64,000 bases of DNA from Centroscyllium fabricii (taxonomy: Eukaryota): assembly GCA_051313645.2 (NCBI GenBank), contig JBNRSN020000024.1:74028001-74092000 (forward strand), read 5' to 3'. Position numbers and translations under genes: made by a program. The notes beneath the pieces were generated by a model, which had not been told where the DNA came from, searched no databases, and was given only the letters and a program-made list of their open reading frames with translations. Position 1 is the first letter of the stretch. Every line of letters starts with the position of its first letter. Shown piece after piece: positions 20,301-58,300 of this stretch.

Positions 20301-22320
20301 AGATACAAAACTGAGTGAACAAATTATGTAAGACACCTAAATTGCTTAGTCCGCTAGTTTAACCATCATGTTAGTTTTGATTCCCGTCCAGCAATGTGCC
20401 ACCTTCTAAAAGTGTGAAGGAACCAAATTCAGAGATTAAGTTCCACATTTTAAAAGTCAAGTTAATTACTGTTGGCAAGTTATGACTGAGCAGTTGTTGC
20501 ACTGGTTGAAAGCAACCATTTGGTTACAAGCCAAAGAGGGAGGTAGATTTAAAATTCCTTCCCATGTAATACTGAACACAAAAAAAGGTCAGAAGAGGAA
20601 AGATTCACCGAGTTTAATGGTCTGCATAAATGCAACATTTTACTACAAGTTTTGATTTATAAACTATTTCTGGAAGTATACTGGATTTTGAAACAAACAC
20701 ATTAAACTGAAACAAGGTTGTTAAATGACAAGAACATTTACATTGAAAGTCCCACCCTGAAGCCAAAGGTTAAAGTAGCCATCACACCAAGTCCCCAATT
20801 TGCAGGGACTAGCATTGGTAATTTAGGAGAGTAGATTTGATTTTACCACTACCTCCTAAAAAGAATTGGCTTTGCCAAGATATGCCCAATCACATGGAGA
20901 CAGCACAAGTGTTTCCAGCACAAGGGCTCTCGACTGTCCAGTGACTTTGGAAGAAATGATTGAACAAGTTGAGAAAGCACTTGGCAATCAAGGGGGGGAA
21001 AAAGGGTCCAGAGTGTTGAAACTTGATTTAAGTACAGTTCCATGTTGTATGAAGAATGTATACAAACAAATAGCATCAGTGTTACCTTGAAACCCTGTTG
21101 GGGTCCATTTTAGATGCAGTCCACACCAGAAGGTGCACGGAGCAGCAATTATAAAGTGTTATGTAGCTAGGGGCTTATGACAAATACATTTTTTGCACAC
21201 ACAAGACATGTATAATGAGACTTCAGAATTCACCATGCTGAACAGAATTCAAGACCTGTGCATTTGACGACAGTTCCAGCACAGAAGGAGTCCAGAGATC
21301 AAGGCCAATGTGAGGGCAATCACTGCTGCTGCAAATAGGACGCCATCAGCTACATTTCCTGTAAACAGATTTAAAGTTGTGAGACTGACGCTGTATACCA
21401 ATGATTACATGCACTATCCTCCCATTCTACTTCCAGCTAGCTTATACCAATATTCTTCATCTCACTCGATTATACACCAGTGCCCAATGAATGTTTTGAA
21501 ACAGGTTCTCCACTACACCATACCAATGATAGCTTCAAGATCCCATGTTATATCAATGCCTTCAGAATTCCCAATATGGTTAATACATCTTTCCAAGGTT
21601 CTGACCACCAGTTCACCACACACCTCAATCAGGTCAGCTGCACCAAATTTAGACCAGCAACTCTAGAAAGCACAACTGCTACTTCCTTGTAACCCATGCT
21701 CTTCAATCTGAAGCCAAATATCATGACAAGGAATGTTATGTTGACTCACATCAAGCTACTACCCTATAGCAAAGGCATTAAGCCAACACTGCAATACCAT
21801 AATCTAGTACGAGCCATTTGGTCTACCAAATTTACTACAGCTGGGAGGCAAATCCAGTTAGGAGCACAGCAGAATACAAAGTGTTACCTTCATTCTGGGC
21901 TCTTGCCAAGTGAAGCTCTTTTGAGTACCCATATGCCTATTGTCCAAAGGGGTGTAATTTAACCTGGTTAACAAAAGTAAATACATACAAGTAACATTTC
22001 CCCAGTGCCAAAGACTGGTTTGTACCTTGTGGCAGTGATTTAGCGCAGGAGTTAACTTAATTTTCAAATTATTCCACATTTGTTAAGTGAACCTGAAGCA
22101 GTTTGGGGACACTGCAGTGACTACACCCAGTTGCACCAGAAGGCATTTTACAAGGACTGGCATTGCCAATATAAAAGAAATGGCAGGAGCTGTAGTGAAG
22201 TACTTACAAGAGGCAGGAAACAATGCTGGGGTAGAATGAGCGCACAAGGGCCAGAATAGCAATATCCCCGATTAGCCAATAAAGTTAGGGCCACTAGACA
22301 TGATTATTTAATTTACAATG

Positions 22321-25300
22321 TCAGGTCTGCAGGGCCTGTTCATCCAATTCTGCAAATTTACAAGTGAGCCCTTCAAAAAGTAGTTAGCTGCCAGTTCAGT
22401 CTTCACATTACAATTATGGCGCAGGATTATGACATATTTTGGTTAGGAATAGGCATGCAGAACACTTCATACCATTTGTCTGGGAAGATTCATCAACACG
22501 CTCTTCAAGAGAGAAAATTATTGGCTTCTTCAGTGTTACCAGTCCTTGGTGTTGGGCTTCAATTGAAGAAAGTAAGTCTGAATTTCTGGTGATTCCTGGC
22601 AAAGGAGAAAGTGTTAGATATTCTACATATTAGTCAGTGATATTCTACATATTAGTCAGTCATCTACAACCCACTCGAAGCCTGAAATTTGCAATCATTT
22701 AAGCCTTTCCTAGTCTCAAAATAGTTGGTTTTCTAGTGCAAGCAAATAATGAGGCACTCACGGCAGCCTGCGGTTATATTTCAGCTTCACAACTGTGAAA
22801 CACTGCTGAAAGATCCCTGCAGACTGCACATTGCAGGTTCATGCAGCTCAAATTGTGGAAAGTTGCATGAGAGAGTCAAGGCAGCAGAGAATCAGATTTA
22901 ATACACAATTATTGGTCTGCCTACAATAGCTGTAGAAAAATCATGGCTGAAAGATGGGCAGCATGAAATATTTGAAGTCGCAGGTGCTGCTTACTTTTTC
23001 CAGCGTCACACGTTGTGCTACACTTTTCCATTTCAGACAGAAGGCACACAGCTGCACTACAATGAAAGTAGACCTACAAGGGAGAAAAAAGTTATACTGG
23101 AGCACCAAGTCAGTGAGAACATAAGAGCAGGAGTAGATCTCACAGCCCCTAAAGCCTGCTCTGCCATTCAATAAAAAGTATGAAAAAAGGTCTAACCTCT
23201 CCAGTCAAGAGGACGTGAACTCTGCCCCAAAACGTAAAGGTCTTCACTTCAAACCGTTTGTGATGTGTTGGAAACTGCAAGCTGGGAGTGGCATCGACTG
23301 CATGCAACTGGGTCAAGTAGTTGTCCTTATAATATGGGCACCTAGGACAAAAAAAACCCACCAAAGGCTTTGTTGTGAAGGTGTTCATCCTGGATACAGA
23401 ATGCTTATTTGTCCAGCTTAGCTGCTGTGAAGATTATTCTTACTATGGGGGGGGGGGGGGGGGGTAAGGTACAAAAGGAGATAGATAAATTAATACTATG
23501 GGGGGGGGCGTGTAAGGTACGAAAGGATAGAGAAATTAAAAGTTCCTTTCACATCAAGTCATAGTGAACATGGGGAAACTGAATCTGCACACAGCAAAGG
23601 TCTCCCAAAAAACCAATGAGCCAAGATGAGACCAGACCATCTACAAGATGCACTGCAGCAACTCGCCAAGGCTTCTTCAGCAGCACCTCCCAAACCCATG
23701 ACCTCTACCACCTAGAAGGAAAAGGGCAGCAGGCACATGGGACCACCACCAGCTACAAGTTTCCTTCCAAGTTACACACCATCCTGATTTGGGAAGTATA
23801 TCACAGTTCTCAGTCACTGGGTCAAAATCCTGGAACTCCCTCCCCAACAGCACTGTGGGAGTACCCACAGATTGCAGTGGTTCAAGGTGGCAGCTCACCT
23901 CCTGCAGGGCAACTAGGGATGGGCAATAAATGCTGGCCTTGCCAGTGATGCCCACATCTCATAAGTGGAAAAAAAGATTGGAGTGTTGCTGCTGGAAATA
24001 AATGTTGGCCAAGACATAGAATTCCCAGCTCTGAATGGTGCCAAGAAATCTTCCACACAAAAGAGGGTATATGGACCCATTTAAAGTGTAGCGTGCAACA
24101 CTTAGCGGAGGATGTCAGCTTAGGTCTTGGTTTCTTGCCGCTGGGTCTGACAGTAGGGAAATATCAAACTGGTGTGAAGAAGGTGGAGAAGATCTTTGAA
24201 CTAAAAAAAAAAGTGAACTGGATCTTGGTCTTTTACTTAAATACTAAACAGCTTCAAATTTTAGCTGCAAGATTTTCCAGACATGCTAAATAATTATTGC
24301 ACAACTATAGCAATCCTGGTAACAAAGGGGAAATTAAGGCCAAGAAAAACAAGAAAGTTTCAATGCTGTAGTCACATTCAAGCCATGAACCTGGCTACAA
24401 AGGCAAATATTGAATTATCGATTGGGAAATAAACTGCCTAGCCACAAGCCTCAGCTGAAGAAGCTTTAAGACAGTATAAGGGAAGTGTGGAAGTATACTT
24501 GCCCTTTCACAAGAATGCTCCACTGTTTGCCATGATGAGGGGCTGGTGTTTGGGTTGCCCAACAGTCATTCAGCACGAGTGCAATGTTGGCATCCACTCT
24601 GTGGAGAAGGCGTACTTCTACATACACTGGCTCCCTAAGAAATTTTACTATCGGGTAGTCTTCATCAGCAAACCAATTACTGTAGGACTCCTCTGTGGAA
24701 ATAAACTAGATCAGTAAAAAAATGTACAGGCCTAGTATTCTTCCAACTCACATTGAAAGTTTGCGTTACCTTTTGCAATCCTCATTTCCATTTGGAGGAC
24801 ACCATCCTGCACGACAAAAGGCAGAGGCAAAGGAGTGTTCACCACCAGCGTCAAAGGGATGTTCCTCCGGCCTGTTAAATGGCAGGTCACGTGCAACCTA
24901 TAAGCAATAACATTAAAGGCTTTTCTCTTGTAGAAAGCATCAGCAAAACTACTAGAAATGGAGGAGCCAAAAAAAAGTGCCAATCATTGTAATAGACCTC
25001 CCAAGCTTAACATGAAAAGTGCTAAAGCTTTGCATCAGGGTGGAGTTATGGGTGGCAGGGGAGAAGAACTGGTGCAAGAGCCTGGGGGTAATGGAGCCAG
25101 GTTTAATCTCTGCCAATTTCACCATTACTGTACCACAATGAACTGATTTAAGCTCAGAGCTCAAATAAAGGAAGGTCTTGAGCAACTTTACCAAATGTGA
25201 CAAAAGTATATTACATGATACGATACTGCGGATGCTGGAAATCCAAACCGAAAAATGCTGGATCAACTCAGGTGGAGAGAAAGAGTTATCGTTTCAGGTC

Positions 25301-28300
25301 GATGGCCTTCAAGAAAGGTCAACTGTTTCTCTCTCCACCAATGCTGCTTGGCCTGCTGAGTTTCTCCAGCATTTTCTGCTGCTTTATATTACATGAGAAT
25401 GATGTTTTAAGTTAGAATGTTGAAAAACATGTGGGGAATACCCAAGGTGGCAGTGGCGACCAGTCTCCGTGCAATTATATATTTACATAATCAGACATGT
25501 CCATCGAGGGGGCATCAGGTAAAGCAAGAGAAAAACCTCCACAAAAAAAAAGGGACCTTTTGGCAACAGCCTGATGGATGAAACACTTTCCATTATTGCA
25601 TCGCGGTCCCATGTTAAAGTAATTGGACATGGAGGAGGAAGAGGGATGGTAGTGCAGGTCCAGCTTCATATTCCATGGGATAGCCACAGTCTCCTGAAGC
25701 TTCCTTCTGGGGGGGGGGTTTCCAATGTTTTTTGGGGGCTTGAAGTTGGCCATAAGCTCTCTCCTCTTGGATAGTGAGCACATGGATGGGTCTGGTCTTG
25801 CCAACACCTCCCATGACCTCACTAGCTGCCACAAGTGCAATTTTTAATTAGAAAGTTCGGTTTTGACCCAGTGCAGGATTCATAAGCTTACCTGAAAGTA
25901 CTGTCTCTGGTTATAGAGCCATGAGGTCCTTTACGGATTTTCCTTTTTGCCATTACATCCACTTCATAAGTGATGTTTACTCCATCAATCTATTAAAAAA
26001 CACAACTTGAGTTTGAGGAGTTGGTGACCCACTAAAAGCAAAAGATGTGCGGGTTAGGTTGATCGGCCATAAGAAATTGACCCTTAGTGTTAGGGGGATT
26101 AAATATGTGGGGTTACAGGGATAGGGTGGGCTGCGTGTCGGTGCAGACTTGATGGCCCGAAATGGCCTCTGTACTGTAGGGATTCTATGGAAAGAAAAAA
26201 AACTTACCGTTAGTGTGGTCCCACATGAACTTAAAGGAAATCTGAAGACAACAATTTCAGCCGTCCTGGCTACAGGGGCACATTCGGAACTCTCATTATT
26301 CACCAAGGAGACAGAGTCAAGATCAAGTGGGGGTACTGTTGCCACCCTGGGGACTACAATGGTAAATAGCCCATTGCTTGTGCAATCAATATAAGCTGGG
26401 GGAAGAAGAGGGTCATATGCAATTAGCAAACTTAAGTTTGCCACAAAAAAAAGTGTTTACTACAGCACTCAACTTGAAGGGACCAGTTGTCTAGCATTGG
26501 ATTTAAATTAGAACTTGCAAATTATATAAAATTTAACAAAATTTAGACTTTACAACAGGCCTCAAAGCTTTCTGCAAGCACACCGCCGATTACAAAGCTG
26601 CCACAGACTTGTGCCAACAGCACTTGAAAGTTGCCACTTTGTAGCAATGAATAAGGCTGACATGTACAAGCACCAACCTATTATTGCTGAAGTCAGAATA
26701 TGGAACAAATTGTACATTAGTAAGGTTCTCATCCATAGTCATTTTCCATAACCTGAATTTAAATAAAACCAACCAGTTTTTCCATAAAAGCAAGGGGTCT
26801 GCACATTGACTGGATCATAACAGCATCCTGTGGCACCACATGCCAGCTCACCAAGTGTGGCATTTCCACACCTTACACGGTCCTTGGCACCAACATCACA
26901 AATTTTGGCTTTGTCTGTAACAGGTAGAGGTTACAATGAATACCAAGTGGTGAACTGAACTGCAATTTAAAGAATCAAAAAGTCAAGACACCTAGTGTTG
27001 CATTCCAAGTAATCTTCAGGTGCACACATTTTACTACCCAAAGATTTGATATTAATCCCAAGTCAACATCAATTTTTCAAGATCATAATCTTGTTACAGG
27101 CTCTAGATAAGTTTGCAATATCCTATCATTTACATAAACTTGTAAATAGGTAATTTACTAGTACTTTAAGCAACAAACTTCAGGTGCGAAACACATTACC
27201 CACACTACATGGAGTAGGCTTTACATTAAAGCAAATCACTTTTGTTCTACCATTTAAAAAAAGTAATTTCCACTAACTTGATTGAGTTGTTTGATGAGGT
27301 AACAGAGGGCAGAGCAGTTGATGTTGTATATGGACTTTCAACAAGGTGTTTGATAAAGTACCACATACTAGGCTAGTTAGCAAAATGGAAGCCCATGGGA
27401 TACAAAATTAGCTAAGGGGGTAGAAAACAGTTGGTGAATGGTGGTTTCCCCAGACTGGAGGCATACAGTGGCATGTGAAGATTCAGTACTAGGACCACTG
27501 CCGCTTTTGATGGTCTTGTGGGTAAAGGGCACAATTTTGATACTTGCAGATTACACAACTTGGAAGTATAATAAACAGCAAAGAGAGCAAGACTTCAAGA
27601 CAGACTTGTGGAATGGGCAGATGCATAGCAAATGAAATTTAATGGAGACCACACTAAAAATGGTACCAGTTTAAAAAAAACAACCATGGGAAATCTTTGA
27701 AAGCAGCAGGACAAGTTAACAAAAGCAGTTTATAAAGCATATTGGATCATGGGCTTTATAAAGAGGCATATAAGAGTACAAAAGCCAGAAAGTTATGCCA
27801 AGCCTACATAAAACACCAAGTTCAGCCCCAGCTAGAGTATTGTCCATTTCTAGGCACCACACTATAGGAAATATGTGAAGGCTTTGGAGGGTACAGAAAA
27901 GATTTACTAGAATGATTCCAGGGATGAGGGATGGACAGACTAGAGAAGGTGAAGGTTGCTCTTTGGAGCAGAGAAGGTAAAGGAGATTTGACAGCGGTTT
28001 AAAATCATGAAGGGTTTAGCTAGTACTGTTTCCAATGGCTGAAGAGTTGATAACAAGAGGGCACAGATTTAAAAAGGTGACTGGCAAGGGAACTAGAGGC
28101 GACATGCGGAAGTTCAAAAGTGGTTAGGATTTGGAATGCACTGCCTGAGGAGTGGATATAGATTCAACAATAGCCTTCAAAGAGGGACATGGATAGATAC
28201 TTGAAATAGGGGAGTGGGAACTAACTGGATTGCTACGAGCCAACAGACTCAGCCTCCTGTGCTGTACTATGATTTTATGCCAGACAATACAAACTAACAT

Positions 28301-31300
28301 CTTTAAAAGCTAGTTGGCCTCTGGAGAATGATGCTTCACCGGCATTTCTACAAACAGACTCTGGCCTGCATTGGAGAAATAGCACTCTTACTGCACCAAG
28401 AAATTCCAGGGTGCTGTCCAGCCTTACTTTTAAAGCACTTAACATAGAAACTAGGAGCAGGCCATTCGGCCCTTCGAGCCTGCTCCGCCATTCAATGAGA
28501 TCATGGCTGATCATCCAAACCCAGCACCCCGCCCCTGCCCTCTCCCCATATCCCTATCGAGCCTGCATCAACACATATCCCACCCTATCCCCGTAACCCC
28601 ACATATTCAATCCCCCTAACAGTAAGAGTCAATTTATCCTGGCCAATCAACCTAACCCGCACATCTTTGGACTGTGGGAGGAAACCGGAGCACCCGGAGG
28701 AAACCCACGCAGACACGGGGAGAATGTGCAAACTCCACACAGATAGTACCAGAGGCTGGATTTGAACCCGGGTCTCCAGTGCTGTGAGACAACAGTGCTA
28801 ACCACTGAGCCACCGTGCCACCCTTGGGTGCATAAACATGCAAGAATTAGATGGTGGCAAATATTTCTTCCCAGGTAGAGGGATTTGAGAATTATACTAC
28901 CCGAAACATTAAATTGCATTTCAAAGCCAACCTTCACCCATCACCAATACAATTCCACCACCATTAGCAGTGCAAGAGGAAACGTCAAATAGCTTTTACA
29001 CTTCAAGCTTTCTGCTCCAGCACCACAAGCAAATTGGCACCAGCTTAGTTTTTGACATATCATACCTCCATTAAGACTATGATCAACTGGAATGGTTACT
29101 GGTGTTGCATTAACTGGCTTCCGATCTACTGGGATGGTTACTGGTGTTGCATTAACTGGCTTCCGATCTGCTGGGATGGTTACTGGTGTTGCATTAACTG
29201 GCTTCCGATCTGCTGGGATGGTTACTGGTGTTGCATTAACTGGCTTCAGTCCTGCTGGTATGGTTACAGGTGTTGCATTGACTGGCTTCCGATCTACTGG
29301 GATGGTTACTGGTATTGGCTTCAGTCCTGCTGGGATGGTTACTGGTGTTGCATTAACTGGCTTCCGATCGGCTGGGATGGTTACTGGTGTTGCATTAACT
29401 GGCTTCCGATCTGCTGGGATGGTTACTGGTGTTGCATTAACTGGCTTCAGTCCTGCTGGTATGGTTACAGGTGTTGCATTGACTGGCTTCCGATCTACTG
29501 GGATGGTTACTGCTGTTGCATTAACTGGCTTCAGTCCTGCTGGTATGGTTACAGGTGTTGCATTGACTGGCTTCCGATCTACTGGGATGCTTACTGGTGT
29601 TGGCTTCTGATCTACTGGGATGGTTACTGGTGTGGCATTAACTGGCTTCAGTCCTGCTGGTATGGTTACTGGTGTTGCATTAACTGGCTTCCGATCTGCT
29701 GGGATGGTTACTGGTGTTGCATTGACTGGCTTCCGATCTACTGGGATGGTTACAGGTGTTGCATTAACTGGCTTCAGATCTGCTGGGATGGTTACTGGTG
29801 TTGCATTGACTGGCTTCCGATCTACTGGGATGGTTACAGGTGTTGCATTAACTGGCTTCAGATCTGCTGGGATGGTTACTGGTGTTGCATTGACTGGCTT
29901 CCGATCTACTGGGATGGTTACAGGTGTTGCATTAACTGGCTTCAGATCTGCTGGAATGGTTACAGGTGTTGGCGTCAGTCCTGCTGGTATGGTTACTGGT
30001 GTTGCATTAACTGGCTTCCGATCTGCTGGGATGGTTACTGGTGTTGGCTTCTGATCTACTGGGATGGTTACTGGTGTTGCATTGACTGGCTTCCGATCTA
30101 CTGGGATGGTTACAGGTGTTGCATTGACTGGCTTCCGATCTACTGGGATGGTTACTGGTGTTGGCTTCCGATCTACTGGGATGGTTACTGGTGTTGCATT
30201 AACTGGCTTCTGATCTGTTGGGATGGTTACTGGTGTTGCATTAACTGGCTTCCGATCTGCTGGGATGGTTACTGGTGTTGCATTAACTGGCTTCCGATCT
30301 GCTGGGATGGTTACTGGTGTTGCATTAACTGGCTTCAGACCTGCTGGAATGGTTACTGGTGTTGGCGTCAGTCCTGCTGGTATGGTTACTGGTGTTGCAT
30401 TAACTGGCTTCCGATCTGCTGGAATGGTTACTGGTGTTGGCTTTTGTCCTGCTGGTATGGTTACTGGTGTTGGCTTCCGATCTACTGGGATGGTTACTGG
30501 TGTTGCATTAACTGGCTTCCGATCTGCTGGGATGGTTACTGGTGTTGGCTTCCGATCTGCTGGGATGGTTACTGGTGTTGCATTAACTGGCTTCCGATCT
30601 GCTGGGATGGTTACTGGTGTTGGCTTCCGATCTACTGGGATGGTTACTGGTGTTGCATTAACTGGCTTCAGTCCTGCTGGGATGGTTACAGGTGTTGCAT
30701 TGACTGGCTTCCGATCTACTGGGATAGTTACTGGTGTTGCATTAACTGGCTTCCGATCTGCTGGGATGGTTACTGGTGTTGCATTAACTGGCTTCCGATC
30801 TACTGGGATAGTTACTGGTGTTGCGTTAACTGGCTTCCGATCTACTGGGATAGTTACTGGTGTTGCGTTAACTGGCTTCAGACCTGCTGGTATGGTTGCT
30901 GGTGTTGCATTAACTGGCTTCTGATCGAAGGGAAAGGATCCTACTGTGGGGCCCACCATTGTTGAAAAGTCAGCTGTTGAAATTAAACAGACGGTTACAA
31001 AAGGAGCAAGAGTAGATTTAGAAAACAGCAGAAACATGGGTGGCAAGAGAAGACTTGTGGGCGCAAGGCTTTCAAATGCACATGGAATTTAAAAGTGCAA
31101 TTGCAAAAGAAGCAGGAGGGCATTTCTGAACTATATTGGCAGAGGAAATGAGGACCAGCAGTTACAGAGCAACAAAGACTTTCCAAAGCACCCTACAATT
31201 AGTGGGTTAATTTTGTTGTCACTTGTGTGCATCTTGACAGCCAAGGTCAAACAGTAACTGATAAAACTATATGGAATTAGTGGAATGCTGGCCAGAAGAT

Positions 31301-34300
31301 CTGGAGAACTGAATGCCTTTGTAGTAGACCATGTGGCCCTGGTTAAGTCAAGGTTCGCTCATTTAATATCACATTGGACTTGGACTATCAGCACCTCCAA
31401 CATTGCAGTACTGCTGCATGGTCAGTAGATTGCATACTGGAGTCCATATTGGGGAAGTGAATCAACAAATCAGAGCCATTAAAAAACCATGCATTACCAA
31501 CTGGACCAAGCTGCAACTGATCCAGGACACCGACATTTCAAAACAATAGGATTTGGCCACTGTGGGGCAGCAGATGGGTCAACACTGTACTGGAGGAAAG
31601 TGGCTTCTGTTGCAAATTAAATAAAACACTAAGTGTTTAAGACATACCAGTCACTTGAGCCAATGATGGCAGTGTACAGTTTACAGGAATGCGCTCGATA
31701 ACAATGATCCGTTTAGATGCATCAATTCCGTCAATTCTCAACTCCATGCTCACTGTTGTATTCTAGAGGGGGAGGAACAGCAATAGCATCCAATAAATTG
31801 AAAGCAAGCAAGCTTAATGCAATAGAACATTCCACCAAGATACAGCAGCAAAAAAAATTACACTGATCCAGTAGAGGAATATTTCTACCCATCACCAACC
31901 CATGCAAGGACAGTTACTTCACAATCAGCAATATTATTGACAGAAACAAAGACTATACTTACCATTAAATGAACATAGCATCCATTGTATGGAGTACTGA
32001 AGAGCAGTGACCCATCCAACTGTGGAATAGTTGTAAATTTACAGCTGCTAGGCAATGAACGCAAATCTCTTGGTATACCATAGTTATCTGTGCAATAAGA
32101 AAGTTTATTGTAAGATAGCAATAATACTGCAGATGCTGGAAATCCAAAACAAAAAAAACTCAAGCAGGCCAGGCAACATCGGTGGAGAGAAATATAGAGT
32201 TGATGTTTTGGGTTCAGACCCGTTGTCAAGACTAAAGCCAGGAAATGAAAGAGGTAGGAAGGCCGGGGGGGCTGCAAGGGAACAGAAAAATTAAAATAAA
32301 ATAAAAAAGTTTTATATAAAGACATTGAGGTATCCAATGCTGATGGGGCTGTGGACAGGAGACAGCTGTAGATTAGGTGTGAAAAGTACTGGTAGAATGA
32401 GGGGGCTGCTAGGAGAGAGAAGGCCAAATAAAAGGTGTGGCTAAATAGGTAAAAATACAATGGGCCAAAGTTATGATCTGAAATTGTTTAACATTGAGAG
32501 AGTCCGGAGGGCTGTAAAGTGTCTAATCGGAAGATATGGTCACTTCCAGCCACTGCAACAGTAGGGGGGTGGGGGGGAAACCAAAGCGTTATCAAAACAG
32601 TTAACCAGTAGAAATGGCTACAAGAGCAAGACAACTCAACTCACCTCCCAACTCTGATGTGGCATGTAGTTTCTACAGCAAGCACACATGGCCTATGAAC
32701 CAATTATACATGGAAGTGCCTGGGATGGTGTACCTCACGGATCTCCACACATCCATGTACCATTGATTTATAAGTCATATTAGTACAGGCTGCCCAAAGG
32801 CGATATCCATTGCAGAACACATTTAGACAGAAGCCAAAATACCACCCTTCACTTCCACTTACCTTTAAAGTGGTCATCAACACAATTCTCAAATTAATTA
32901 GTGTATGATCCATGAAGATGGCACAGAGGTGACCCAGTGTCAATGAGAAATAAATTCTCAGGCCTTGAATAAGTGATACACAGCCACACAACCAACTGAA
33001 ACAAAAAGTTAGATTCAAATAGACCCAAAAAAGGAAGCCTGAAAAGCTAATAACACACTGGCCAGTGCATGTGTCTCAGACTATTCCCAGTGGTGACCAC
33101 TGGTCATGGAAGGCCACAAGCAGATCACATGCTCCCTCTTCAGAGCCACCCAAGCAAGGACAAGACTGTGGGAGAGGCAGGCAGCCAGAGCAACCCTCCC
33201 AGTTGAGGACCTACAATACCAGCTCAACTGAGGGAATTAGAGACATGGTGTAATGTCACACTTGGCATATTCCAACCTTGTACAGCCAAATGTGGCCAAC
33301 TTATACACCACTTCAAAAGCAATCCAGTCACAAGTGCTTTGGCACATTCAGGCAACACAATAAAAGGCACTATATAAAGCATTTGTCCTAGTAAGAAGCT
33401 CAAAGAATGCCAGATTTATTTTTTTATTTTTTTAATATAAAAAAAAAGGTACAAGGAGATGCTCACATCCACATTGATCAAATAAAGCCAGCACAGCACC
33501 TGCATTACTCAACTGGTTTCAGCAACAGAGCTAATGACATTTCCAATGGCTTATATTCTTCCATACCCATCAGACACAGATCTGTCCTTTGGGAGGATCA
33601 GGTATACATCAAGAACTAAAGGGATATTGAATCTCCTAGCCAGAAGATTATATAAACCTGCAATTTTATTGCTTCAGACAGAAATCATATATTGAGAGAA
33701 CATTCACTCTTCCTTCCCCCACCCACCCCAAAAGGCAACATTTAAAATTGCCATACTCAGCCTAGAAATGACAAATAGGACATCTCAGGTTAGCAAGTTC
33801 CATTTTATAGTGCACCTCTGGTATAACATTTCCCCCAGTGTCCTGGCCATAATTTATCACTCAACTGTCCCAAAAAATCTGTTTTTTTATCCCATGATTT
33901 GAGAGACTTCAATTGGCTACCACATTCCCCTACATTAAGTGACTACTCAAAATTATCTGGTGAAAGGCACGACAGAACTTTTTTTTCCTTTTGTATAGGC
34001 AGACGTTTGAGGTCACTTCATTAGACAACCCCCCCCACCCCCCAACCCCCACCCCAAATCAGAGGAAGGAGATCAAAAGTATGAACAAAGTAGATTGAAG
34101 CGTTCAAACATTGGGCAAGCACACCACATTTATGGCAAGAATGAGGGACCAAAATAGTTAAAGGTCAAGCCAGTAGAGAAAGGTCAAGCCAGTAAGGAAC
34201 TAGAAAGCTTTGCTCCACGGAGGAGCATCACTGGCTGATACATTGACTACAGCAAGCAGCATTGGGCAGCTATTGGAAAATATTCTAGGGTAGGGAGTCA

Positions 34301-34764
34301 CACGAATAAAATTCGACCATCTGTGATGAGGTTTTACAAGAGATTCCATGAGTTACCATCCTGAGAAGGAGTGAAATTTTCCTCAATGAGAAAAAAAAAC
34401 ACCTCTCCCGATGTAGGTGTAACATCTTTGTTCAAAAAAAGAGATGGAAACAGGTATAGTTGGAGGGAAATACAACTGATGCTCCAAGTTACTTGAAACC
34501 AAGAGGAATCGAGATTGCTCCAAACCTCCCTTATTTATTTGAACCTTTCACGACTCCTGACTTACCCACGATTGAAAGTCGAATAGACATCCCCTGAAAC
34601 GAGTCATTGCGAATTCGCACCACGACCCCCAACGGCGTGCAAGTAATCTCCTCGGGATAGTCAAAGTATTGCACCGATACTGGGCCTCGCAGTCGGGGGG
34701 ATGAGCCCACAACCCGCCCCCTTAAACAGCTCCCGCAGAGAAACAAAAAGATCAAGAGCCACAT
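22321..34764 (-). CDS. ZP4: ZPB-class zona pellucida glycoprotein (ZP4/ZP1-like) with mucin-like repeat exon, copy A; 13 exons, ~1155 aa
   Basis: Exons (minus): 34764-34566, 32087-31963, 31762-31648, 30973-29066, 26914-26774, 26395-26208, 25989-25892, 24897-24770, 24692-24503, 23341-23197, 23073-22995, 22595-22473, last exon probably 22349-22321 (alternative 22189-22083). Phases compatible, total 3468 nt; signal peptide, 4-Cys ZP-N1, trefoil, GSITRDS, DYPIVKFLREPVYVEV, CWAT, GCPY, VYFHCSAAVC, furin-like KRITR. Confidence 0.88.
22473..22595 (-). CDS. ZP4: ZP copy A exon 12 (furin site, EHP)
   Basis: RITRNSD...GLVTLKKPIIFSLEE; TTTCTCCTTTGCCAG acceptor, GTATGA donor. Confidence 0.85.
22995..23073 (-). 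CDS. ZP4: ZP copy A exon 11 (end of ZP-C)
   Basis: VYFHCSAAVCLLSEMEKCSTTCDAGK. Confidence 0.92.
23197..23341 (-). CDS. ZP4: ZP copy A exon 10 (ZP-C)
   Basis: CPYYKDNYLTQL...FPTHHKRFEVKTFTF. Confidence 0.92.
23600..23960 (+). mobile_element. L2/CR1-type LINE 3' fragment (intronic; duplicated at ~53530-53895)
   Basis: Tail GGGCAACTAGGGATGGGCAATAAATGCTGGCCTTGCCAGTGATGCCCACATC shared with the SINE at 10712-11203. Confidence 0.65.
24503..24692 (-). CDS. ZP4: ZP copy A exon 9 (ZP-C; GC splice donor)
   Basis: YSNWFADEDYPIVKFLREPVYVEVRLLHRVDANIALVLNDCWAT...QWSILVKG, followed by GCAAGT. Confidence 0.92.
24770..24897 (-). CDS. ZP4: ZP copy A exon 8 (linker/IHP)
   Basis: LHVTCHLTGRRNIPLTLVVNTPLPLPFVVQDGVLQMEMRIAK. 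Confidence 0.92.
25892..25989 (-). CDS. ZP4: ZP copy A exon 7 (ZP-N)
   Basis: IDGVNITYEVDVMAKRKIRKGPHGSITRDSTFR. Confidence 0.92.
26208..26395 (-). CDS. ZP4: ZP copy A exon 6 (ZP-N)
   Basis: IDCTSNGLFTIVVPRVATVPPLDLDSVSL...ECAPV...VVFRFPLSSCGTT; GTAAG donor. Confidence 0.93.
26774..26914 (-). CDS. ZP4: ZP copy A exon 5 (trefoil domain)
   Basis: CDVGAKDRVRCGNATLGELACGATGCCYDPVNVQTPCFYG six-Cys trefoil pattern. Confidence 0.92.
27270..28275 (+). mobile_element. Old degenerate CR1 fragment (intronic; duplicated at ~57190-58190)
   Basis: Remnants AVDVVYMDF, GGAGGGTACAGAAAAGATTTACTAGAATGATTCCAGGG, TTGGAATGCACTGCCTG. Confidence 0.7.
28441..28823 (-). mobile_element. HE1-type V-SINE (intronic)
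   Basis: V-domain and HER1 tail; orthologous copy at 58351-58728. Confidence 0.9.
29066..30973 (-). CDS. ZP4: ZP copy A exon 4: Pro/Thr-rich VNTR exon (46 units, 636 codons)
   Basis: TTTCAACAG acceptor, GTATGA donor, phase 1-1; 36 x 42-bp and 10 x 33-bp units, no stop. Confidence 0.85.
29078..30922 (-). repeat. Coding minisatellite, 42-bp/33-bp units (copy A)
   Basis: Plus-strand unit GGGATGGTTACTGGTGTTGCATTAACTGGCTTCCGATCTGCT with a 9-bp-deleted variant. Confidence 0.97.
31648..31762 (-). CDS. ZP4: ZP copy A exon 3 (end of ZP-N1)
   Basis: NTTVSMELRIDGIDASKRIIVIERIPVNCTLPSLAQVT; CCCCTCTAG acceptor, GTATGT donor. Confidence 0.82.
31963..32087 (-). CDS. ZP4: ZP copy A exon 2 (ZP-N1)
   Basis: DNYGIPRDLRSLPSSCKF...STPYNGCYVHLM; TTGCACAG acceptor, GTAAGT donor. 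Confidence 0.88.
32125..32540. mobile_element. Penelope-like/short interspersed repeat fragment (related pieces at ~20010, ~25225, ~43430, ~62215)
   Basis: Recurrent motif ACTGCAGATGCTGGAAATC...CTCAGCAGGCCAGGCAGCATC...GGAGAGAAA; family assignment from recall only. Confidence 0.5.
34566..34764 (-). CDS. ZP4: ZP copy A exon 1 (signal peptide, start of ZP-N1)
   Basis: MWLLIFLFLCGSCLRG...ITCTPLGVVVRI...IRLSIV|G then GTAAG donor. Confidence 0.82.
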
Positions 34765-37893: not shown

Positions 37894-38165
37894 TGATGCA
37901 CAATCAATTACTACAGTCGATGGTTAGATATAATCGAGGCTTTTATTCACATAGAAGTGGACACAGGTCCGACGATCTTCCAAGCCAAAGTGAGAGCACT
38001 CAGGTGTGCTGGCACTTTTATACCCAGTGGGCGGAGCCTGGGGAGGAAGCCGGGGAGCGGAGTCCTCCCAGGTGAGTCCTTCCTGGCAAGGAGGCGTTAC
38101 GTACAATTACAGGGAGGGGACACAAGGGGGAGACATATATATACTATATACAGGCGTTTACCACA
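37894..38165 (-). repeat. Gypsy 3' LTR (272 bp)
   Basis: Direct repeat of 41793-42062. Confidence 0.95.
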
Positions 38166-38246
38166 TTCACCCCCTGTTTAAAAAAATGATGGCGGGGTGA
38201 ACAATCTTTCAGCATATTATACGAAAGTCAGCATATTATACAAAAG

Positions 38247-41760: not shown

Positions 41761-41792
41761 CCTCTTTGTAAAAAAGATTATGTGAATAATAT

Positions 41793-50574: not shown

Positions 50575-52306
50575 AATACTGAACACAAAAAAGGTCAGAA
50601 GAGGAAAGATTCACCGAGTTTAATGGTCTGCATAAATGCAACATTTTACTACAAGTTTTGATTTATAAACTATTTCTGGAAGTAGACTGGATTTTGGAAC
50701 AAACATTAAACTGAAACAAGGTTGTTACGACAAGAACATTTACATTGAAAGTCCCACCCTGGAGTCAAAGGTTAACGTAGCCATCACACCAAGTCCCCAA
50801 TTTGCAGGGACTTGCATTGGTAATTTAGGAGAGTGAGTAGATTTGATTTTACCACTACCTCCTAAAAAGAATTGGCTTTGCCAAGATATGTCCAATCACA
50901 TGGAGACAGCACAAGTGTTTCCAGCACAAGGGCTCTCGACTGTCCAGTGACTTTGGAAGAAGTGATTGAACAAGTTGAGAAAGCACTTGGCAATCAAGGG
51001 GGGGGAAAAAAGGGTCCAGAGTGTTGAAACTTGATTTAAGTACAGTTCCATGTTGTATGAAGAATGTATACAAACAAATCGCATCAGTGTTACCTTGAAA
51101 CCCTGTTGGGGTCCATTTTAGATGCAATCCACACCAGAAGGTGCACTGAGCAGCTAGGGGCTTATGACAAATACATTTTTTGCACACACAAGACATGTAT
51201 AATGAGACTTCAGAATTCACCATGCTGAACAGAATTCAAGACCTGTGCATTTGACGACAGTTCCAGCACAGAAGGAGTCCAGAGATCAAGGCCAATGTGA
51301 GGGCAATCACTGCTGCTGCAAATAGGACGCCATCAGCTACATTTCCTGTAAACAGATTTAAAGTTGTGAGACTGACGCTGTATACCAATGATTACATGCA
51401 CTATCCTCCCATTCTACTTCCAGCTAGCTTATACCAATATTCTTCATCTCACTCCATTATACACCAGTGCCCAATGAATGTTTTGAAACAGGTTCTCCAC
51501 TACACCATACCAATGATAGCTTCAAGATCCCATGTTATATCATGCCTTCAGAATTCCCAATATGGTTAATACATTTTTCCAAGATTCTGACCAGTTCACC
51601 ACACACCTCAATCAGGTCAGCTGCACCAAATTTAGACCAGCAACTCTAGAAAGCACAACTGCTACTTCCTTGTAACCCATGCTCTTCAATCTGAAGCCAG
51701 ATATCATGACAAGGAATGTTATGTTGACTCACATCAAGCTATTACCCTATAGCAAAGGCATTAAGCTAACACTGCAATACCATAATCTAGTACGAGCCAT
51801 TTCGTTTACCAAATTTACTACAGCTGGGAGGCAAATCCAGTTAGGAGCACAGCAGAATACAAAGTGTTACCTTCATTCTGGGCTCTTGCCAAGTGAAGCT
51901 CTTGAGTACCCATATGCCTATTGTCCAAAGGGGTGTAATTTAACCTTGTTAACAAAAGTAAATACATACAAGTAACATTTCCCCAGTGCCAAAGACTGGT
52001 TTGTACCTTGTGGCAGTGATTCAGCGCAGGAGTTAATTTTCAAATTATTCCACATTTGTTAAGTTAAGTTAAGTGAACCTGAAGCAGTTTAGGGACACTG
52101 CAGTGACTACACCCAGTTGCACCAGAAGGCATTTTACAAGGACTGGCATTGCCAATATAAAAGAAATGGCAGGAGCTGTAGTGAAGTACTTACAAGAGGC
52201 AGGAAACAATGCTGGGGTAGAATGAGCGCACAAGGGCCAGAATAGCAATATCCCCGATTAGCCAATAAAGTTAGGGCCACTAGACATGATTATTTAATTT
52301 ACAATG

Positions 52307-55300
52307 TCAGGTCTGCAGGGCCTGTTCATCCAATTCTGCAAATTTACAAGCGAGCCCTTCAAAAAGTAGTTAGCTGCCAGTTCAGTCTTCACATTACAAT
52401 TATGGCGCAGGATTATGACATTTTGGTTAGGAATAGGCATGCAGAACACTTCATACCATTTGTCTGGGAAGATTCATCAACACGCTCTTCAAGAGAGAAA
52501 ATTATTGGCTTCTTCAGTGTTACCAGTCCTTGGTGTTGGGCTTCAATTGAAGAAAGTAAGTCTGAATTTCTGGTGATTCCTGGCAAAGGAGAAAGTGTTA
52601 GTGATATTCTACATATTAGTCAGTCATCTACAACCCACTCGAAGCCTGAAATTTGCAATCATTTAAGCCTTTCCTAGTCTCAAAATAGTTGGTTTTCTAG
52701 TGCAAGCAAATAATGAGGCACTCATGGCAGCCTGCGGTTATATTTCAGCTTCACAACTGTGAAACACTGCTGAAAGATCCCTGCAGACTGCACATTGCAG
52801 GTTCATGCAGCTCAAATTGTGGAAAGTTGCATGAGAGAGTCAAGGCAGCAGAGAATCAGATTTAACACACAATTATTGGTCTGCCTACAATAGCTGTAGA
52901 AAAACCATCATGGCTGAAAGATGGGCAGCATGAAATATTTGAAGTCGTAGGTGCTGCTTACTTTTTCCAGCGTCACACGTTGTGCTACACTTTTCCATTT
53001 CAGACAGAAGGCACACAGCTGCACTACAATGAAAGTAGACCTACAAGGGAGAAAAAAGTTATACTGGAGCACCAAGTCAGTGAGAACATAAGAGCAGGAG
53101 TAGATATCTCAGCCCCTAAAGCCTGCTCTGCCATTCAATAAAAGGTATAAAAAAAGGTCTAACCTCTCCAGTCAAGAGGACGTGAACTCTGCCCCAAAAC
53201 GTAAAGGTCTTCACTTCAAACCGTTTGTGATGTGTTGGAAACTGCAAGCTGGGAGTGGCATCGACTGCATGCAACTGGGTCAAGTAGTTGTCCTTATAAT
53301 ATGGGCACCTAGGACAAAAAAAAACACCAAAGGCTTTGTTGTGAAGGTGTTCATCCTGGATACAGAATGCTTATTTGTCCAGTTCAGCTTCTGTGAAGAT
53401 TATTCTTACTATTGGGGGGGGGGGGGGGGGGGGGGGGAAGAAGTGAGGTACAAAAGGATAGAGAAAAGTTCCTTTCACATCAAGTCAGTCATAGTTAACA
53501 TGGGGAAACTGAATCTGCACACAGCAAAGGTCTCCCAAAAAACCAATGAGCCAAGATGAGACCAGACCATCTACAAGATGCACTGCAGCAACTCGCCAAG
53601 GCTTCTTCAGCAGCACCTCCAAACCCATGACCTCTACCATCTAGAAGGAAAAGGGCAGCAGGCACATGGGACCACCACCAGCTACAAGTTTCCTTCCAAG
53701 TTACACACCATCCTGACTTGGGAAGTGTATCACAGTTCTCAGTCACTTGGTCAAAATCCTGGAACTCCCTCCCCAACAGCACTGTGGGAGTACCTTCAGA
53801 TTGCAGTGGTTCAAGGTGGCAGCTCACCTCCTCCTGCAGGGCAACTAGGGGTAGGCAATAAATGCTGGCCTTGCCAGTGATGCCCACATCTCAAGTGGAA
53901 AAAAAAATAAAAAAATGTGTGTGTTACTGCTGGAGATAAATGTTGGCCAAGACATAGAATTCCCAGCTCTCTGAATGGTGCCAAGAAATCTTCCACACCC
54001 AAGAGGGTATATGGACCCATTTAAAGTGTAGCGTGCAACACTTAGTGGAGGATGTCAGCTTAGGTCTTGGTTTCATGCCTCTGGGTCTGACAGTAGGGAA
54101 ATATCAAACTGGTGAAGGTGGAGAAGATCTTTGAACTAAAAAAAAATAAGTGAACTGGATCTTGGTCTTTTACTTAAATACTAAACAGCTTCAAATTTTA
54201 GCTGCAAGATTTTCAGACATGCTAAACAATTATTGCACAACTATAGCAATCCTGGTAACAAAGGGGAAATTAAGGCCAAGAAAAACAAGAAAGTTTCAAT
54301 GCTGTAGTCACATTCAAGCCATGAACCTGGCTACAAAGGCAAATATTGAATTATCGATTGGGAAATAAACTGCCTTGCCACAAGCCTCAGCTGAAGAAGC
54401 TTTAATACAGCACAAGGGAAGTGTGGAAGTATACTTGCCCTTTCACAAGAATGCTCCACTGTTTGCCATGAGGGGCTGGTGTTTGGGTTGCCCAACAGTC
54501 ATTCAGCACTAGTGCAATGTTGGCATCCACTCTGTGGAGAAGGCGTACTTCTGCATACACTGGCTCCCTAAGAAATTTTACTATCGGGTAGTCTTCATCA
54601 GCAAACCAAGTACTGTAGGACTCCTCTGTGGAAATAAACTAAATCAGTAAAATGTACAGGCCTAGTATTCTTCCAACTCACATTGAAAGTTTGCGTTACC
54701 TTTTGCAATCCTCATTTCCATTTGGAGGACACCATCCTGCACGACAAAAGGCAGAGGCGAAGGAGTGTTCACCACCAGCGTCAAAGGGATGTTCCTCCTG
54801 CCTGTTAAATGGCAGGTCACGTGCAACCTATAAGCAATAACATTAAAGGCTTTTCTCTTGTAGAAAGCATCAGCAAAACTACTAGAAATGGAGGAGCCAA
54901 AAAAAGTGCCAATCATTGTAGTAGACCTCCCAAGCTGAACATGAAAAGTGCTAAAGCTTTGCATCAGGGTGGAGTTATGGGGGGCAGGGGAGAAGAACTG
55001 GTGCAAGAGCCTGGGGGGGTAATGGAGCCAGGTTTAATCTCTGCAAATTTCAACATTACCACAGAATGAACTGATTTAAGCTCGGAGTTCAAAAAAAGGA
55101 AGGGTGTGAGCAACTTTACCAAATGTGACAAAAGTATATTACATGATACGATAGCAAAATACTGCGGATACTGGAAATCCAACCGAAAAATGCTGGAGAA
55201 ACTCAGGCCAGGCAGCATCGGTGGAGAGTTATTGTTTCAGGTCGATGACCGTCAACTGTTTCTCTCTCCACCGATGCTGCCTGGCCTGCTGAGTTTCTCC

Positions 55301-58300
55301 AGCATTTTCTGCTGCTTTATATTACATGAGAATGATGTTTTAAGTTAGAACGTTGAAAAACATGTGGGGAATACCCAAGGTGGCAGTGGCGACCAGTCTC
55401 CGTGCAATTATATATTTACATAATCAGACATGTCCATCGAGGGGGCATCAGGTAAAGCAAGAGAAAAACTCAAAAAAGGACCTTTTGGCAACAGCCTGAT
55501 GGATGAAACACTTTCCATTATTGCATCACGGTCCCATGTTAAAGTAATTGGACATGGAGGAGGAAGAGGGATGGTAGTGCAGGTCCAGCTTCATATTCCA
55601 TGGGATAGCCACAGTCTCCTGAAGCTTCCTTCTGGGGGGGGGGTTCCAATGTTTGGGGGCTTGAAGTTGGCCATAAGCTCTCCTCTTGGATAGTGAGCAC
55701 ATGGATGGGTCTGGTCTTGCCAACACCTCACTAGCTGCCACAAGTGCAATTTTTAATTAGAAAGTTCGTTAGAAAGTTCGGTTTTGACCCAGTGCAGGAT
55801 TCATAAGCTTACCTGAAAGTACTGTCTCTGGTTATAGAGCCATGAGGTCCTTTACGGATTTTCCTTTTTGCCATTACATCCACTTCATAAGTGATGTTTA
55901 CTCCATCAATCTATTAAAAAACACAACTTGAGTTTGAGGAGTTGGTGACCCACTAAAAGCAAAAGATGTGCAGGTTAGGTTGATTGGCCATAAGAAATTG
56001 ACCCTTAGTGTTAGGGGGATTAAATATGTGGGGTTACAGGGATAGGGTGGGATGTGTGTCGGTGCAGGCTCGATGGCCCGAAATGGCCTCTACTGTCGGG
56101 ATTCTATGGAAAGAAAAAAACTTACCGTTAGTGTGGTCCCACATGAACTTAAAGGAAATCTGAAGACAACAATTTCAGCCGTCCTGGCTACAGAGGCACA
56201 TTCGGAACTCTCATTATTCACCAAGGAGACAGAGTCAAGATCAAGTGGGGGTACCGTTGCCACCCTGGGGACTACAATGGTAAATAGCCCATTGCTTGTG
56301 CAATCAATATAAGCTGGGGGAAGAAGAGGGTCATATGCAATTAGCAAACTTAAGTTTGCCACAAAAAAGTGTTTACTACAGCACTCAACTTGAAGGGACC
56401 AGTTGTCTAGCATTGGATTTAAATTAGAACTTGCAAATTATATAAAATTTAATAAACAAAATTTAGACTTTACAACAGGCCTCAAAGCTTTCTGCAAGCA
56501 CACCGCCGATTACAAAGCTGCCACAGACTTGTGCCAACAGCACTTGAAAGTTGCCACTTTGTAGCAATGAATAAGGCTGACATGTACAAGCACCAAACTA
56601 TTATTGCTGAAGTCAGAATATGGAACAAATTGTACATTAGTAAGGTTCTCATCCAGTCATTTTCCATAACCTGAATTTAAATAAAACCAACCAGTTTTTC
56701 CATAAAAGCAAGGGGTCTGCACATTGACTGGATCATAACAGCATCCTGTGGCACCACATGCCAGCTCACCAAGTGTGGCATTTCCACACCTTACACGGTC
56801 CTTGGCACCAACATCACAAATTTTGGCTTTGTCTGTAACAGGTAGAGGTTACAATGAATACCAAGTGGTGAACTGAACTGCAATTTAAAGAATCAAAAAG
56901 TCAAGACACCTAGTGTTGCATTCCAAGTAATCTTCAGGTGCACACATTTTACTACCCAAAGATTTGATATTAATCCCAAGTCAACATCAATTTTTCAAGA
57001 TCATAATCTTGTTACAGGCTCTAGATAAGTTTGCAATATCCTATCTTTTACATAAACTTGTAAATAGGTAATTTACTAGTACTTTAAGCAACAAACTTCA
57101 GGTGTGAAACACATTAGCCACACTACATTGAGTAGGCTTTACATTAAAGCAAATCACTTTTGTTCTACCATTTAAAAAAAGTAATTTCCACTAACTTGAT
57201 TGAGTTGTTTGATGAGGTAACAGGGCAGAGCAGTTGATGTTGTATATGGACTTTCAACAAGGTGTTTGATAAAGTACCACATACTAGGCTAGTTAGCAAA
57301 ATGAAAGCCCATGGGATACAAAATTAGCTAAGGGGGTAGAAAACAGTTGGTGAATGGCGGTTTCCCCAGACTGGAGGCATACAGTGGCATGTGAAGATTC
57401 AGTACTAGGACCACTGCCGCTTTTGATGGTCTTGTGGGTAAAGGGCACAATTTTGATACTTGCAGATTACACAACTTGGAAGTATAATAAACAGCAAAGA
57501 ATGCAAGACTTCAAGACAGACTTGTGGAATGGGCAGATGCATAGCAAATGAAATTTAATGGAGACCACACTAAAAATGGTACCAGTTTAAAAAAAAAAAC
57601 CATGGGAAATCTTTGAAAGCAGCAGGACAAGTTAACAAAAGCAGTTTATAAAGCATATTGGATCATGGGCTTTATAAAGAGGCATATAGAGTACAAAAGC
57701 CAGAAAGTTATGCCAAGCCTACATAAAACACCAAGTTCAGCCCCAGCTAGAGTATTGTCCATTTCTAGGCACCACACTATAGGAAATATGTGAAGGCTTT
57801 GGAGGGTACAGAAAAGATTTACTAGAATGATTCCAGGGATGAGGGATGGACAGACTAGAAGGTGAAGGTTGCTCTTTGGAGCAGAGAAGGTAAAGGAGAT
57901 TTGACAGCGGTTTAAAATCATGAAGGGTTTAGCTAGTACTGTTTCCAATGGCTGAAGAGTTGATAACAAGAGGGCACAGATTTAAAAAGGTGACTGGCAA
58001 GGGAACTAGAGGCGACATGAGGAAGTTCAAAAGTGGTTAGGATTTGGAATGCACTGCCTGAGGAGTGGATATAGATTCAACAATAGCCTTCAAAGAGGAC
58101 ATGGATAGATACTTGAAATAGGGGAGTGGGAACTAACTGGATTGCTAAGAGGCAACAGACTCAGCCTCCTGTGCTGTACTATGATTTTATGCCAGACAAT
58201 ACAAATAACATCTTTAAAAGCTAGTTGGCCTCTGGAGAATGATGCTTCATCGGTATTTCTACAAACAGACTCTGGCCTGCATTGGAGAAATAGCACTCTT

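What the first reader, a model, noticed from the sequence alone, without database searches (positions are those of the whole stretch)
29066..30973. Single-exon mucin-like VNTR with an N-x-T sequon and a lysine in nearly every unit
Seen: 46 units (36 of 14 aa, 10 of 11 aa lacking VNA), over half of the ~1155-aa protein. All 36 long units carry N-A-T, and copy B variants (NVT, NTT) still keep the sequon. Most are followed by Pro, which is known to lower N-glycan occupancy. Thr/Pro density suggests O-glycosylation. Inference: an extended glycosylated spacer or brush on the egg coat; the regular Lys (with scattered Gln) could be transglutaminase cross-link sites as in teleost envelope hardening.
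Basis: partly seen in the sequence, partly recalled or inferred. Interest (0 to 1): 0.7.

Follow-up and report, generated by a model that had tools for sequence, protein, structure and literature searches.

The report
Repeat linker in shark egg-coat protein
A shark egg-coat gene carries a long repetitive stretch in the same place as the repeat of the bird egg-coat protein ZP1, apparently evolved separately, and it most likely serves as a stretchable spacer rather than a sugar brush or a glue site.

Summary
In detail: a 1,908-nt phase 1-1 exon (30973-29066, minus strand) encodes 46 units (36 long, 10 short), 36 N-A-T sequons and 43 Lys, 54% of a 1,182-aa protein. The gene is a shark ZP1/4 (ZPB): ZP-N1, repeat, trefoil, ZP module, furin site, membrane anchor, in two tandem copies. 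The repeat is the N1-to-trefoil linker. Related K-(E)-P-[VA]-[ND]-x-T repeats sit there in 5 of 7 other elasmobranch species (whale shark short, Narcine none). Lamprey, lungfish, sturgeon and tetrapod ZP4 linkers are 13-30 aa, and a clade of elasmobranch ZP1/4 plus tetrapod ZP1 is rejected (AU p=0.025), so it looks convergent with the bird/reptile ZP1 repeat, a proposed molecular spring. 35 of 36 sequons are followed by Pro, one Heptranchias paralogue and Stegostoma use Asp instead, and sequon retention within the window is not significant (P=0.09). Gln is rare, there are no Pro-Gln repeats, and the hardening transglutaminase is reported as teleost-specific. Lys is conserved except in catshark, which is unexplained. 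Best reading: a disordered, probably O-glycosylated spacer or spring. Expression, exon inclusion and the N1 anchor are unshown. New variant of a known kind; interest 0.45.

The parts
34566..34764 (-). Copy A exon 1: start codon, hydrophobic signal-like N-terminus, start of ZP-N1 (Cys42)
   Evidence: aligns with elasmobranch orthologues; no signal-peptide predictor was run
31963..32087 (-). Copy A exon 2: ZP-N1 middle (Cys82, Cys103); no cross-link Cys
   Evidence: Pfam PF22821 E=8.6e-4, 20.2 bits, below the cut-off of 28; alignment
31648..31762 (-). Copy A exon 3: end of ZP-N1 (Cys137)
29066..30973 (-). Copy A exon 4: repeat linker, 1,908 nt, phase 1-1; array about 30917-29079, 46 units, consensus PVNATPVTIPADRK
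26774..26914 (-). Copy A exon 5: trefoil domain (phase 1-1)
   Evidence: Pfam PF00088 E=7.1e-10
24770..26395 (-). Copy A exons 6-8 (26395-26208, 25989-25892, 24897-24770): ZP-N and interdomain linker
   Evidence: Pfam PF23344 E=3.5e-10 on exon 6; splice sites
22995..24692 (-). Copy A exons 9-11 (24692-24503 with GC donor, 23341-23197, 23073-22995): ZP-C
   Evidence: Pfam PF00100 E=2.1e-15 and 4.1e-5
22473..22595 (-). Copy A exon 12: minimal furin-type site RITR and C-terminal propeptide
   Evidence: read from the translation; the R-x-x-R rule is recalled
21249..21358 (-). Copy A exon 13: hydrophobic membrane anchor (about 21341-21276), short tail, stop
   Evidence: read from the translation
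58968..61058 (-). Copy B repeat exon, 2,091 nt, 51 units
51236..62178 (-). Copy B exons 2-13, open to the stop; exon 1 lies outside the window

Best explanation
The exon is the inter-domain linker of a shark ZP1/4 (ZPB) egg-coat subunit. Shown: architecture, orthology, position and turnover of the repeat. Inferred: the precursor is membrane-anchored in the ovary, cut at the furin site and polymerises through its ZP module; the ~640-residue Pro/Val/Thr/Lys/Asp chain stays disordered, probably carries O-glycans on Thr, and holds ZP-N1 on a long leash (coil radius ~9 nm, ~200 nm stretched) that gives slack between filaments while the coat expands round a large yolky oocyte. What matters is length and composition, not the exact unit. 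Most N-A-T-P sequons are probably empty in this lineage. It works like the bird/reptile ZP1 repeat but arose separately.
For: Domain order by Pfam. Linker from the last N1 Cys to the first trefoil Cys: window 650, Heptranchias 587 and 431, Chiloscyllium 631, Pristis 471, Scyliorhinus 454, Stegostoma 432; lamprey 13-23, lungfish 17-30, sterlet 25, reedfish 15, frog/lizard ZP4 13-14; turtle 297, turnstone 461, cobra 544. N1-to-trefoil-CC distance: median 414 in 22 sauropsid ZP1, 22 in 73 tetrapod ZP4. Elasmobranch clade 99-100% and outside tetrapod ZP1+ZP4; joining it with ZP1 is rejected, AU p=0.025. Units, charge (+36 to -29) and sequon use differ widely while Pro/Thr/Val richness stays. Arrays A and B share only 10 of 27 and 30 distinct DNA units yet keep frame. 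Chicken ZP1 repeat proposed as a molecular spring (PMC6626044, Discussion); human ZP1 linker unstructured (bioRxiv 2023.06.21.544075, passage). Size estimates use recalled constants.
Against: A spring needs an anchor, and shark N1 has only four Cys, without the N-C-[ST]-x-C cross-link motif found in 21 of 22 sauropsid ZP1. The whale shark model has an 84-aa linker and the Narcine model 15 aa, though both have yolky eggs (recalled); a tuatara ZP1 model is also short (95). No transcript or protein evidence. All orthologues are predicted gene models. The AU test is one quick LG+G4 tree of 22 rows, run after I had seen the free tree, and p is only moderately under 0.05. Convergence rests on two lineages. 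The conserved Lys and Asx-x-Thr core suggest something beyond length.
Confidence: 0.58

Rival explanations
1. N-glycan brush: each long unit carries an N-glycan, making a dense hydrated, possibly sperm-binding layer. It is plausible for sawfish and catshark, much less so for this gene.
For: 36 of 37 Asn in the linker lie in sequons, against a shuffle mean of 4.6 (units are not independent). Sequons without a following Pro: Pristis 24 of 26, Scyliorhinus 21 of 21, Chiloscyllium 15 of 15. The core is kept across sharks and a ray.
Against: Only 1 of 36 (A), 1 of 38 (B) and 2 of 38 (Heptranchias P0020) sequons escape a following Pro; PMC12818257 passage. Asp replaces Asn in Heptranchias P0002 (24 of 28) and Stegostoma (21 of 23). 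Within the window P=0.09.
Confidence: 0.12
2. Transglutaminase substrate: the regular Lys are amine donors for isopeptide cross-links to Gln in this or another coat protein, hardening the envelope.
For: Lys lies one or two residues before the core in 8 of 9 repeat linkers, 6 of 7 species. It could replace the missing disulfide cross-link. Other transglutaminases exist in sharks (recalled).
Against: No Pro-Gln in the linker; Gln 0-8 per linker against 18-84 in sauropsid ZP1. Catshark has 2 Lys in 454 aa. The hardening enzyme and cross-link system are placed in the teleost ancestor (PMC13187792, PMC12186722, passages). I did not look for Gln-rich partner subunits in sharks.
Confidence: 0.08
3. 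Sacrificial protease target: sperm proteases cut the repeat and open a hole, as reported for the chicken ZP1 repeat.
For: Chicken repeat degraded by penetrating sperm (PMC6626044 Discussion). Chondrichthyans keep acrosin and have no micropyle (PMC13762310, passages). Copy A has 30 trypsin-type sites; Chiloscyllium 36, Stegostoma 31. Compatible with the spring reading.
Against: Lys is followed by Pro in 44 of 46 cases; Heptranchias has 1 and Pristis 0 trypsin-type sites, catshark 3.
Confidence: 0.1
4. Near-neutral coding minisatellite in a tolerant linker, or a cassette exon that is often skipped; it has no job of its own.
For: Phase 1-1, so skipping gives a ~546-aa protein with a 14-aa linker, like the 545-aa Narcine model and ancestral ZP1/4. 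Synonymous versus replacement alleles in the arrays (10 and 15) do not differ from expectation, p=0.22. Catshark models X1-X12 differ in repeat length (753-1,022 aa).
Against: Both arrays stay open, with length changes in whole codons. A long linker is kept in 6 of 8 elasmobranch species examined, window included, and a recognisable core in sharks and a sawfish.
Confidence: 0.12

Closest known systems
Avian/reptilian ZP1 with its P/Q-rich repeat domain (PMC6626044; PMC4475693)
   Same: Order ZP-N1, repeat, trefoil, ZP module; linker of several hundred residues; large yolky eggs (recalled).
   Different: No cross-link Cys in N1; repeat is P/V/T/K/D with sequons, not P/Q/G/H (the chicken repeat has no N-glycosylation site); membrane anchor present, whereas chicken ZP1 is liver-made; not orthologous to ZP1 alone.
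Tetrapod ZP4 and ZP1/4 of lamprey, lungfish, sturgeon, bichir
   Same: Four-Cys N1, trefoil, ZP module; ZP1/4 subfamily (PMC6262864 places Chondrichthyes as outgroup to ZP1+ZP4).
   Different: Linker 13-30 aa instead of 650.
Teleost ZPB / choriogenin H with Pro-Gln-X repeats
   Same: Repeat immediately upstream of the trefoil.
   Different: No N1 in teleosts; Gln-rich and cross-linked by a teleost-specific transglutaminase; the shark repeat has no Pro-Gln.
Elasmobranch orthologues in RefSeq (Heptranchias XP_067823991.1, XP_067864438.1; Pristis XP_051891486.1; Chiloscyllium XP_043574249.1 'mucin-2-like'; Stegostoma XP_059511267.1 'mucin-17-like'; Scyliorhinus LOC119975182)
   Same: Same gene, same linker position, homologous core; Heptranchias P0020 has the same KPVNATP.
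   Different: Unit sequence, charge and Asn/Asp differ; several are misnamed or uncharacterised.
Mucin PTS/VNTR domains
   Same: One large exon of variable tandem repeats rich in Pro and Thr.
   Different: Ser+Thr only 16%, aliphatic residues 36%; composition is as near to titin PEVK-type elastic segments (P+E+D+V+K 50%; the likeness is recalled, not tested).

Membership tests
ZP1/4 (ZPB) subfamily | Trefoil directly before a ZP-N/ZP-C module | tested here: met
   Pfam PF00088, PF23344, PF00100 on exons 5, 6, 9, 10
ZP1/4 (ZPB) subfamily | N-terminal ZP-N1 domain with four Cys | tested here: met
   Weak PF22821 on exon 2 alone; PF22821 precomputed on orthologues; four Cys align with ZP1/ZP4 N1
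ZP1/4 (ZPB) subfamily | Groups with ZP1/4 sequences in a tree | tested here: met
   Elasmobranch clade 99-100%, with Callorhinchus as sister at 99%
ZP1/4 (ZPB) subfamily | Made in ovary or liver and built into the egg coat | not testable with these tools
   No expression or protein data obtained
Tetrapod ZP1 | Extra cross-linking Cys in N1 (N-C-[ST]-x-C) | tested here: not met
   Absent in the window and the 8 elasmobranch N1 aligned; present in 21 of 22 sauropsid ZP1
Tetrapod ZP1 | Member of the ZP1 clade | tested here: not met
   AU p=0.025 against a clade of 6 elasmobranch plus 6 ZP1 rows
Tetrapod ZP1 (sauropsid type) | P/Q-rich repeat between N1 and trefoil | tested here: not met
   Repeat at that position, but 6 Gln in 650 aa against 18-84
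Tetrapod ZP4 | N1 abuts the trefoil | tested here: not met
   650 aa; ZP4 N1-to-CC median 22, maximum 92 in 73; met only by the hypothetical skipped form
Teleost transglutaminase-hardened ZPB | Pro-Gln-X repeats | tested here: not met
   0 PQ and 0 QP in the linker
Teleost transglutaminase-hardened ZPB | Fish hardening transglutaminase in the genome | not tested
   No whole genome held; literature calls it teleost-specific
Mucin PTS domain | High Ser+Thr content (about 40%, recalled threshold) with Pro | tested here: not met
   Ser+Thr 16%, Pro 22%; orectolobiform orthologues reach 30-33%
Mucin PTS domain | Dense O-glycosylation | not testable with these tools
   Two Thr per unit next to Pro; needs glycoproteomics

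The most novel reading that the evidence does not exclude
Elasmobranchs and sauropsids independently inserted a several-hundred-residue spring at the same N1-trefoil junction of ZP1/4 as an answer to giant yolky oocytes. The shark version came as one symmetric exon, is anchored without the disulfide, and its array switches whole-scale between glycan-on (N-x-T-V/T/A), Pro-blocked (N-A-T-P) and glycan-off (D-x-T) states by homogenisation, even between tandem paralogues of one species, so tuning coat stiffness or sperm access.
Probability: 0.3. Interest if true: 0.68.

Novelty: new variant of a known kind. Interest (0 to 1): 0.45.

Why it matters
The idea that the bird ZP1 repeat is a spring for a growing egg coat rests on one lineage and is offered as a suggestion in PMC6626044. 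An independent long linker at the same junction in sharks and rays gives a second case and a natural series (15 to 650 aa; Asn or Asp; Pro-blocked or free; Lys or His/Gln) on which to test it. It also narrows that paper's remark that ZP1-N1 is not found in fish: N1 is present in lamprey, shark, lungfish, sturgeon and bichir proteins here, and it was the teleost-type sequences that lacked it. It also corrects 'mucin-like' annotations of these genes. It is not a new mechanism.

Tried and rejected
Antisense Trp/Cys-rich ORF (29049-30965, +): no Pfam match; the unit has 3 of 6 frames open, and 15,590 of 20,000 shuffled units have 3 or more; rejected as a by-product. Selection on the sequon within the window: P=0.09; synonymous excess p=0.22 (alleles counted per base, so two of them are artefacts of double changes); not shown. 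A candidate small exon after exon 3 was dropped because its intron would be 41 nt (read). N1 homodimer prediction with the Narcine N1: no answer, neither support nor evidence against. Sequencing runs: four holders from one study, no RNA holder listed; no read-level result was obtained, so whether copies A and B are true paralogues or two haplotypes stays open. No whole genome held. PDB sequence search with the Narcine protein matched ZP2 ZP-C, choriogenin H, uromodulin and trefoil factors but no ZP1-N1 structure. Earlier findings: none. Literature: six searches on shark or vertebrate ZP1/4 and repeats listed no paper that describes this repeat; they cover open-access text only, and I read listings, not all hits. 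Callorhinchus (P0032) is a 349-aa model that starts just before the trefoil, so its linker is unknown. No skate orthologue appeared.

Full report
Observation. The minus-strand exon 30973-29066 is real: 1,908 nt, AG/GT borders, phase 1-1, open, with a 42-nt repeat of 46 copies. Copy A has 46 units, 36 long and 10 short, 36 sequons (35 NATP, 1 NATA), Lys ending 43 of 45 complete units, and 4 Gln. A second copy lies 30 kb away with 51 units and 38 sequons.

The gene. Exons scanned singly hit Trefoil, ZP-N, ZP-C and, weakly, ZP1/ZP4 Ig-like (6 of 10 pieces had a match, the repeat only a compositional Extensin hit below cut-off). The order is N1, repeat, trefoil, ZP module, RITR, membrane anchor. 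The best homologues are elasmobranch proteins; Heptranchias is nearest (93% on exon 9; 82% over 337 columns). The organism is therefore a shark; I did not determine the species. Three quick trees put the gene in an elasmobranch clade outside tetrapod ZP1 and ZP4, as PMC6262864 reports for Chondrichthyes (passages). Sharks also have a second ZPB of 433-446 aa with no N1 or repeat.

Two copies. A and B differ by 111 substitutions in 7,331 aligned intron bases (1.5%) with 58 indels, and by 7 synonymous, 4 replacement and one codon indel in 479 non-repeat codons; both are open. The arrays share 10 DNA unit types of 27 and 30, in different order. Retroelements and an inversion differ around them. 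Heptranchias has three models on a scaffold of one length, so a real tandem duplication is likely, but a duplicated haplotype is not excluded.

The repeat across species. Of 7 other elasmobranch species found, five have linkers of 431-631 aa, whale shark 84 and Narcine 15. The units share K-(E)-P-[VA]-[ND]-x-T. Heptranchias P0020 has Asn in 38 of 39 cores, its paralogue P0002 Asp in 24 of 28; Stegostoma Asp in 21 of 23; Pristis Asn in 26 of 26, mostly without a following Pro; catshark Asn in 22 of 23 with His or Gln and almost no Lys. Net charge runs from +36 to -29. Lamprey, lungfish, sterlet, reedfish and frog or lizard ZP4 have 13-30 aa (names). Among one search's new hits plus four earlier ones, 22 sauropsid ZP1 have a median N1-to-trefoil-CC distance of 414 and 73 tetrapod ZP4 of 22; 12 other rows (no N1, tandem or unnamed) were counted apart. 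A short linker is thus ancestral, and holding elasmobranch ZP1/4 with tetrapod ZP1 is rejected at p=0.025. I infer two separate expansions at one junction. Skipping exon 4 would restore a 14-aa linker, which suggests the shark repeat arrived as one symmetric exon (inference).

A review states that Pro right after the Ser/Thr abrogates core glycosylation (PMC12818257, passage); that applies to 35 of 36 sequons here. No sequon-destroying point allele occurs in long units, but with 14 of 89 possible replacements destroying it the chance is 0.09, and 23 of 97 units delete it. An N-glycan brush is more credible in sawfish and catshark. For transglutaminase, the teleost enzyme is an F13A duplicate from early teleost evolution acting on Pro-Gln-X repeats (PMC13187792 and PMC12186722, passages; the primary paper was seen only as a reference). 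The shark linker has no Pro-Gln, and its Gln codons sit where CGG decays to CAG and TGG (CpG decay is established knowledge). Against my reading, Lys is kept at the same place in 8 of 9 repeat linkers; I cannot explain that fully. Pairing with Asp/Glu in a charged elastic chain is my guess.

Mechanism. In human ZP1 the N1 domain hangs on a ~90-residue unstructured linker (bioRxiv 2023.06.21.544075, passages). In chicken the P/Q repeat at this position self-associates (PMC4475693, passages) and is proposed to be a spring that stretches as the coat expands, later cut by sperm (PMC6626044, passages and whole Discussion). Catshark zona pellucida thickens in vitellogenic follicles (PMC10794776, passages), and chondrichthyans keep acrosin and lack a micropyle (PMC13762310, passages). 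I therefore read the exon as a disordered, probably O-glycosylated leash, about 9 nm in coil radius and about 200 nm stretched (recalled constants). The weak step is the anchor: shark N1 lacks the cross-link Cys. Chicken ZP4-N1 dimerises without it and human ZP4-N1 does not, so both outcomes have precedent. The short whale shark and Narcine models count against a strict need, unless they are assembly or annotation losses. Shown: sequence, architecture, orthology, variation. Inferred: expression, inclusion, disorder, glycosylation, function.

Novelty. A repeat between N1 and trefoil is known. This composition, its spread in elasmobranchs and its separate origin were not found in six searches; a 2026 review has no mention of sharks (PMC13361971, term search). 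The library lacks most subscription papers, among them Sano et al. 2022 on fish ZP genes (seen only as a reference), and I did not open the supplements of PMC6262864 or PMC6626044, whose alignments may include shark sequences. Verdict: new variant of a known kind, interest 0.45.

Noticed in passing
window 24503-24498 (minus), and copy B 54439: Intron 9 has a GC donor in both copies.
   Followed up: partly
window 37894-42062: LTR retrotransposon between the copies: 272-bp LTR pair 95% identical; protease, reverse transcriptase and integrase ORFs on the minus strand.
   Followed up: partly
window 35310-35838: 71-bp minisatellite, 7.5 copies, 95% matches, about 550 bp upstream of copy A's start codon; no Pfam match for its ORF.
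   Followed up: no
window 18692-20188 versus 45437-46889; 47975-50480: The 3' flank of copy A recurs inverted before copy B, followed by a LINE endonuclease/reverse transcriptase remnant that copy A's flank lacks.
   Followed up: partly
window 3342-4112 (+): 256-aa coiled-coil-like ORF, weak Angiomotin_C hit E=0.002; resembles a CCDC92-type last exon (recalled, not tested).
   Followed up: no
window 29049-30965 (+) and 58954-61050 (+): Long Trp/Cys-rich antisense ORFs over both arrays; explained as a by-product of the unit.
   Followed up: yes
proteins P0264, P0280, P0305, P0079: Elasmobranchs have a second ZPB paralogue with no N1 and no repeat, forming its own 99% clade.
   Followed up: partly
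proteins P0020 and P0002 (Heptranchias): Two paralogues nearly identical outside the repeat differ array-wide in Asn versus Asp at the sequon.
   Followed up: partly
proteins P0136, P0153, P0157, P0158: Unnamed ZP proteins of 1,252-3,066 aa with 4 to 23 tandem N1-like matches.
   Followed up: no
window 54625-54439: Copy B exon 9 lacks one His codon and has two replacements relative to copy A.
   Followed up: no
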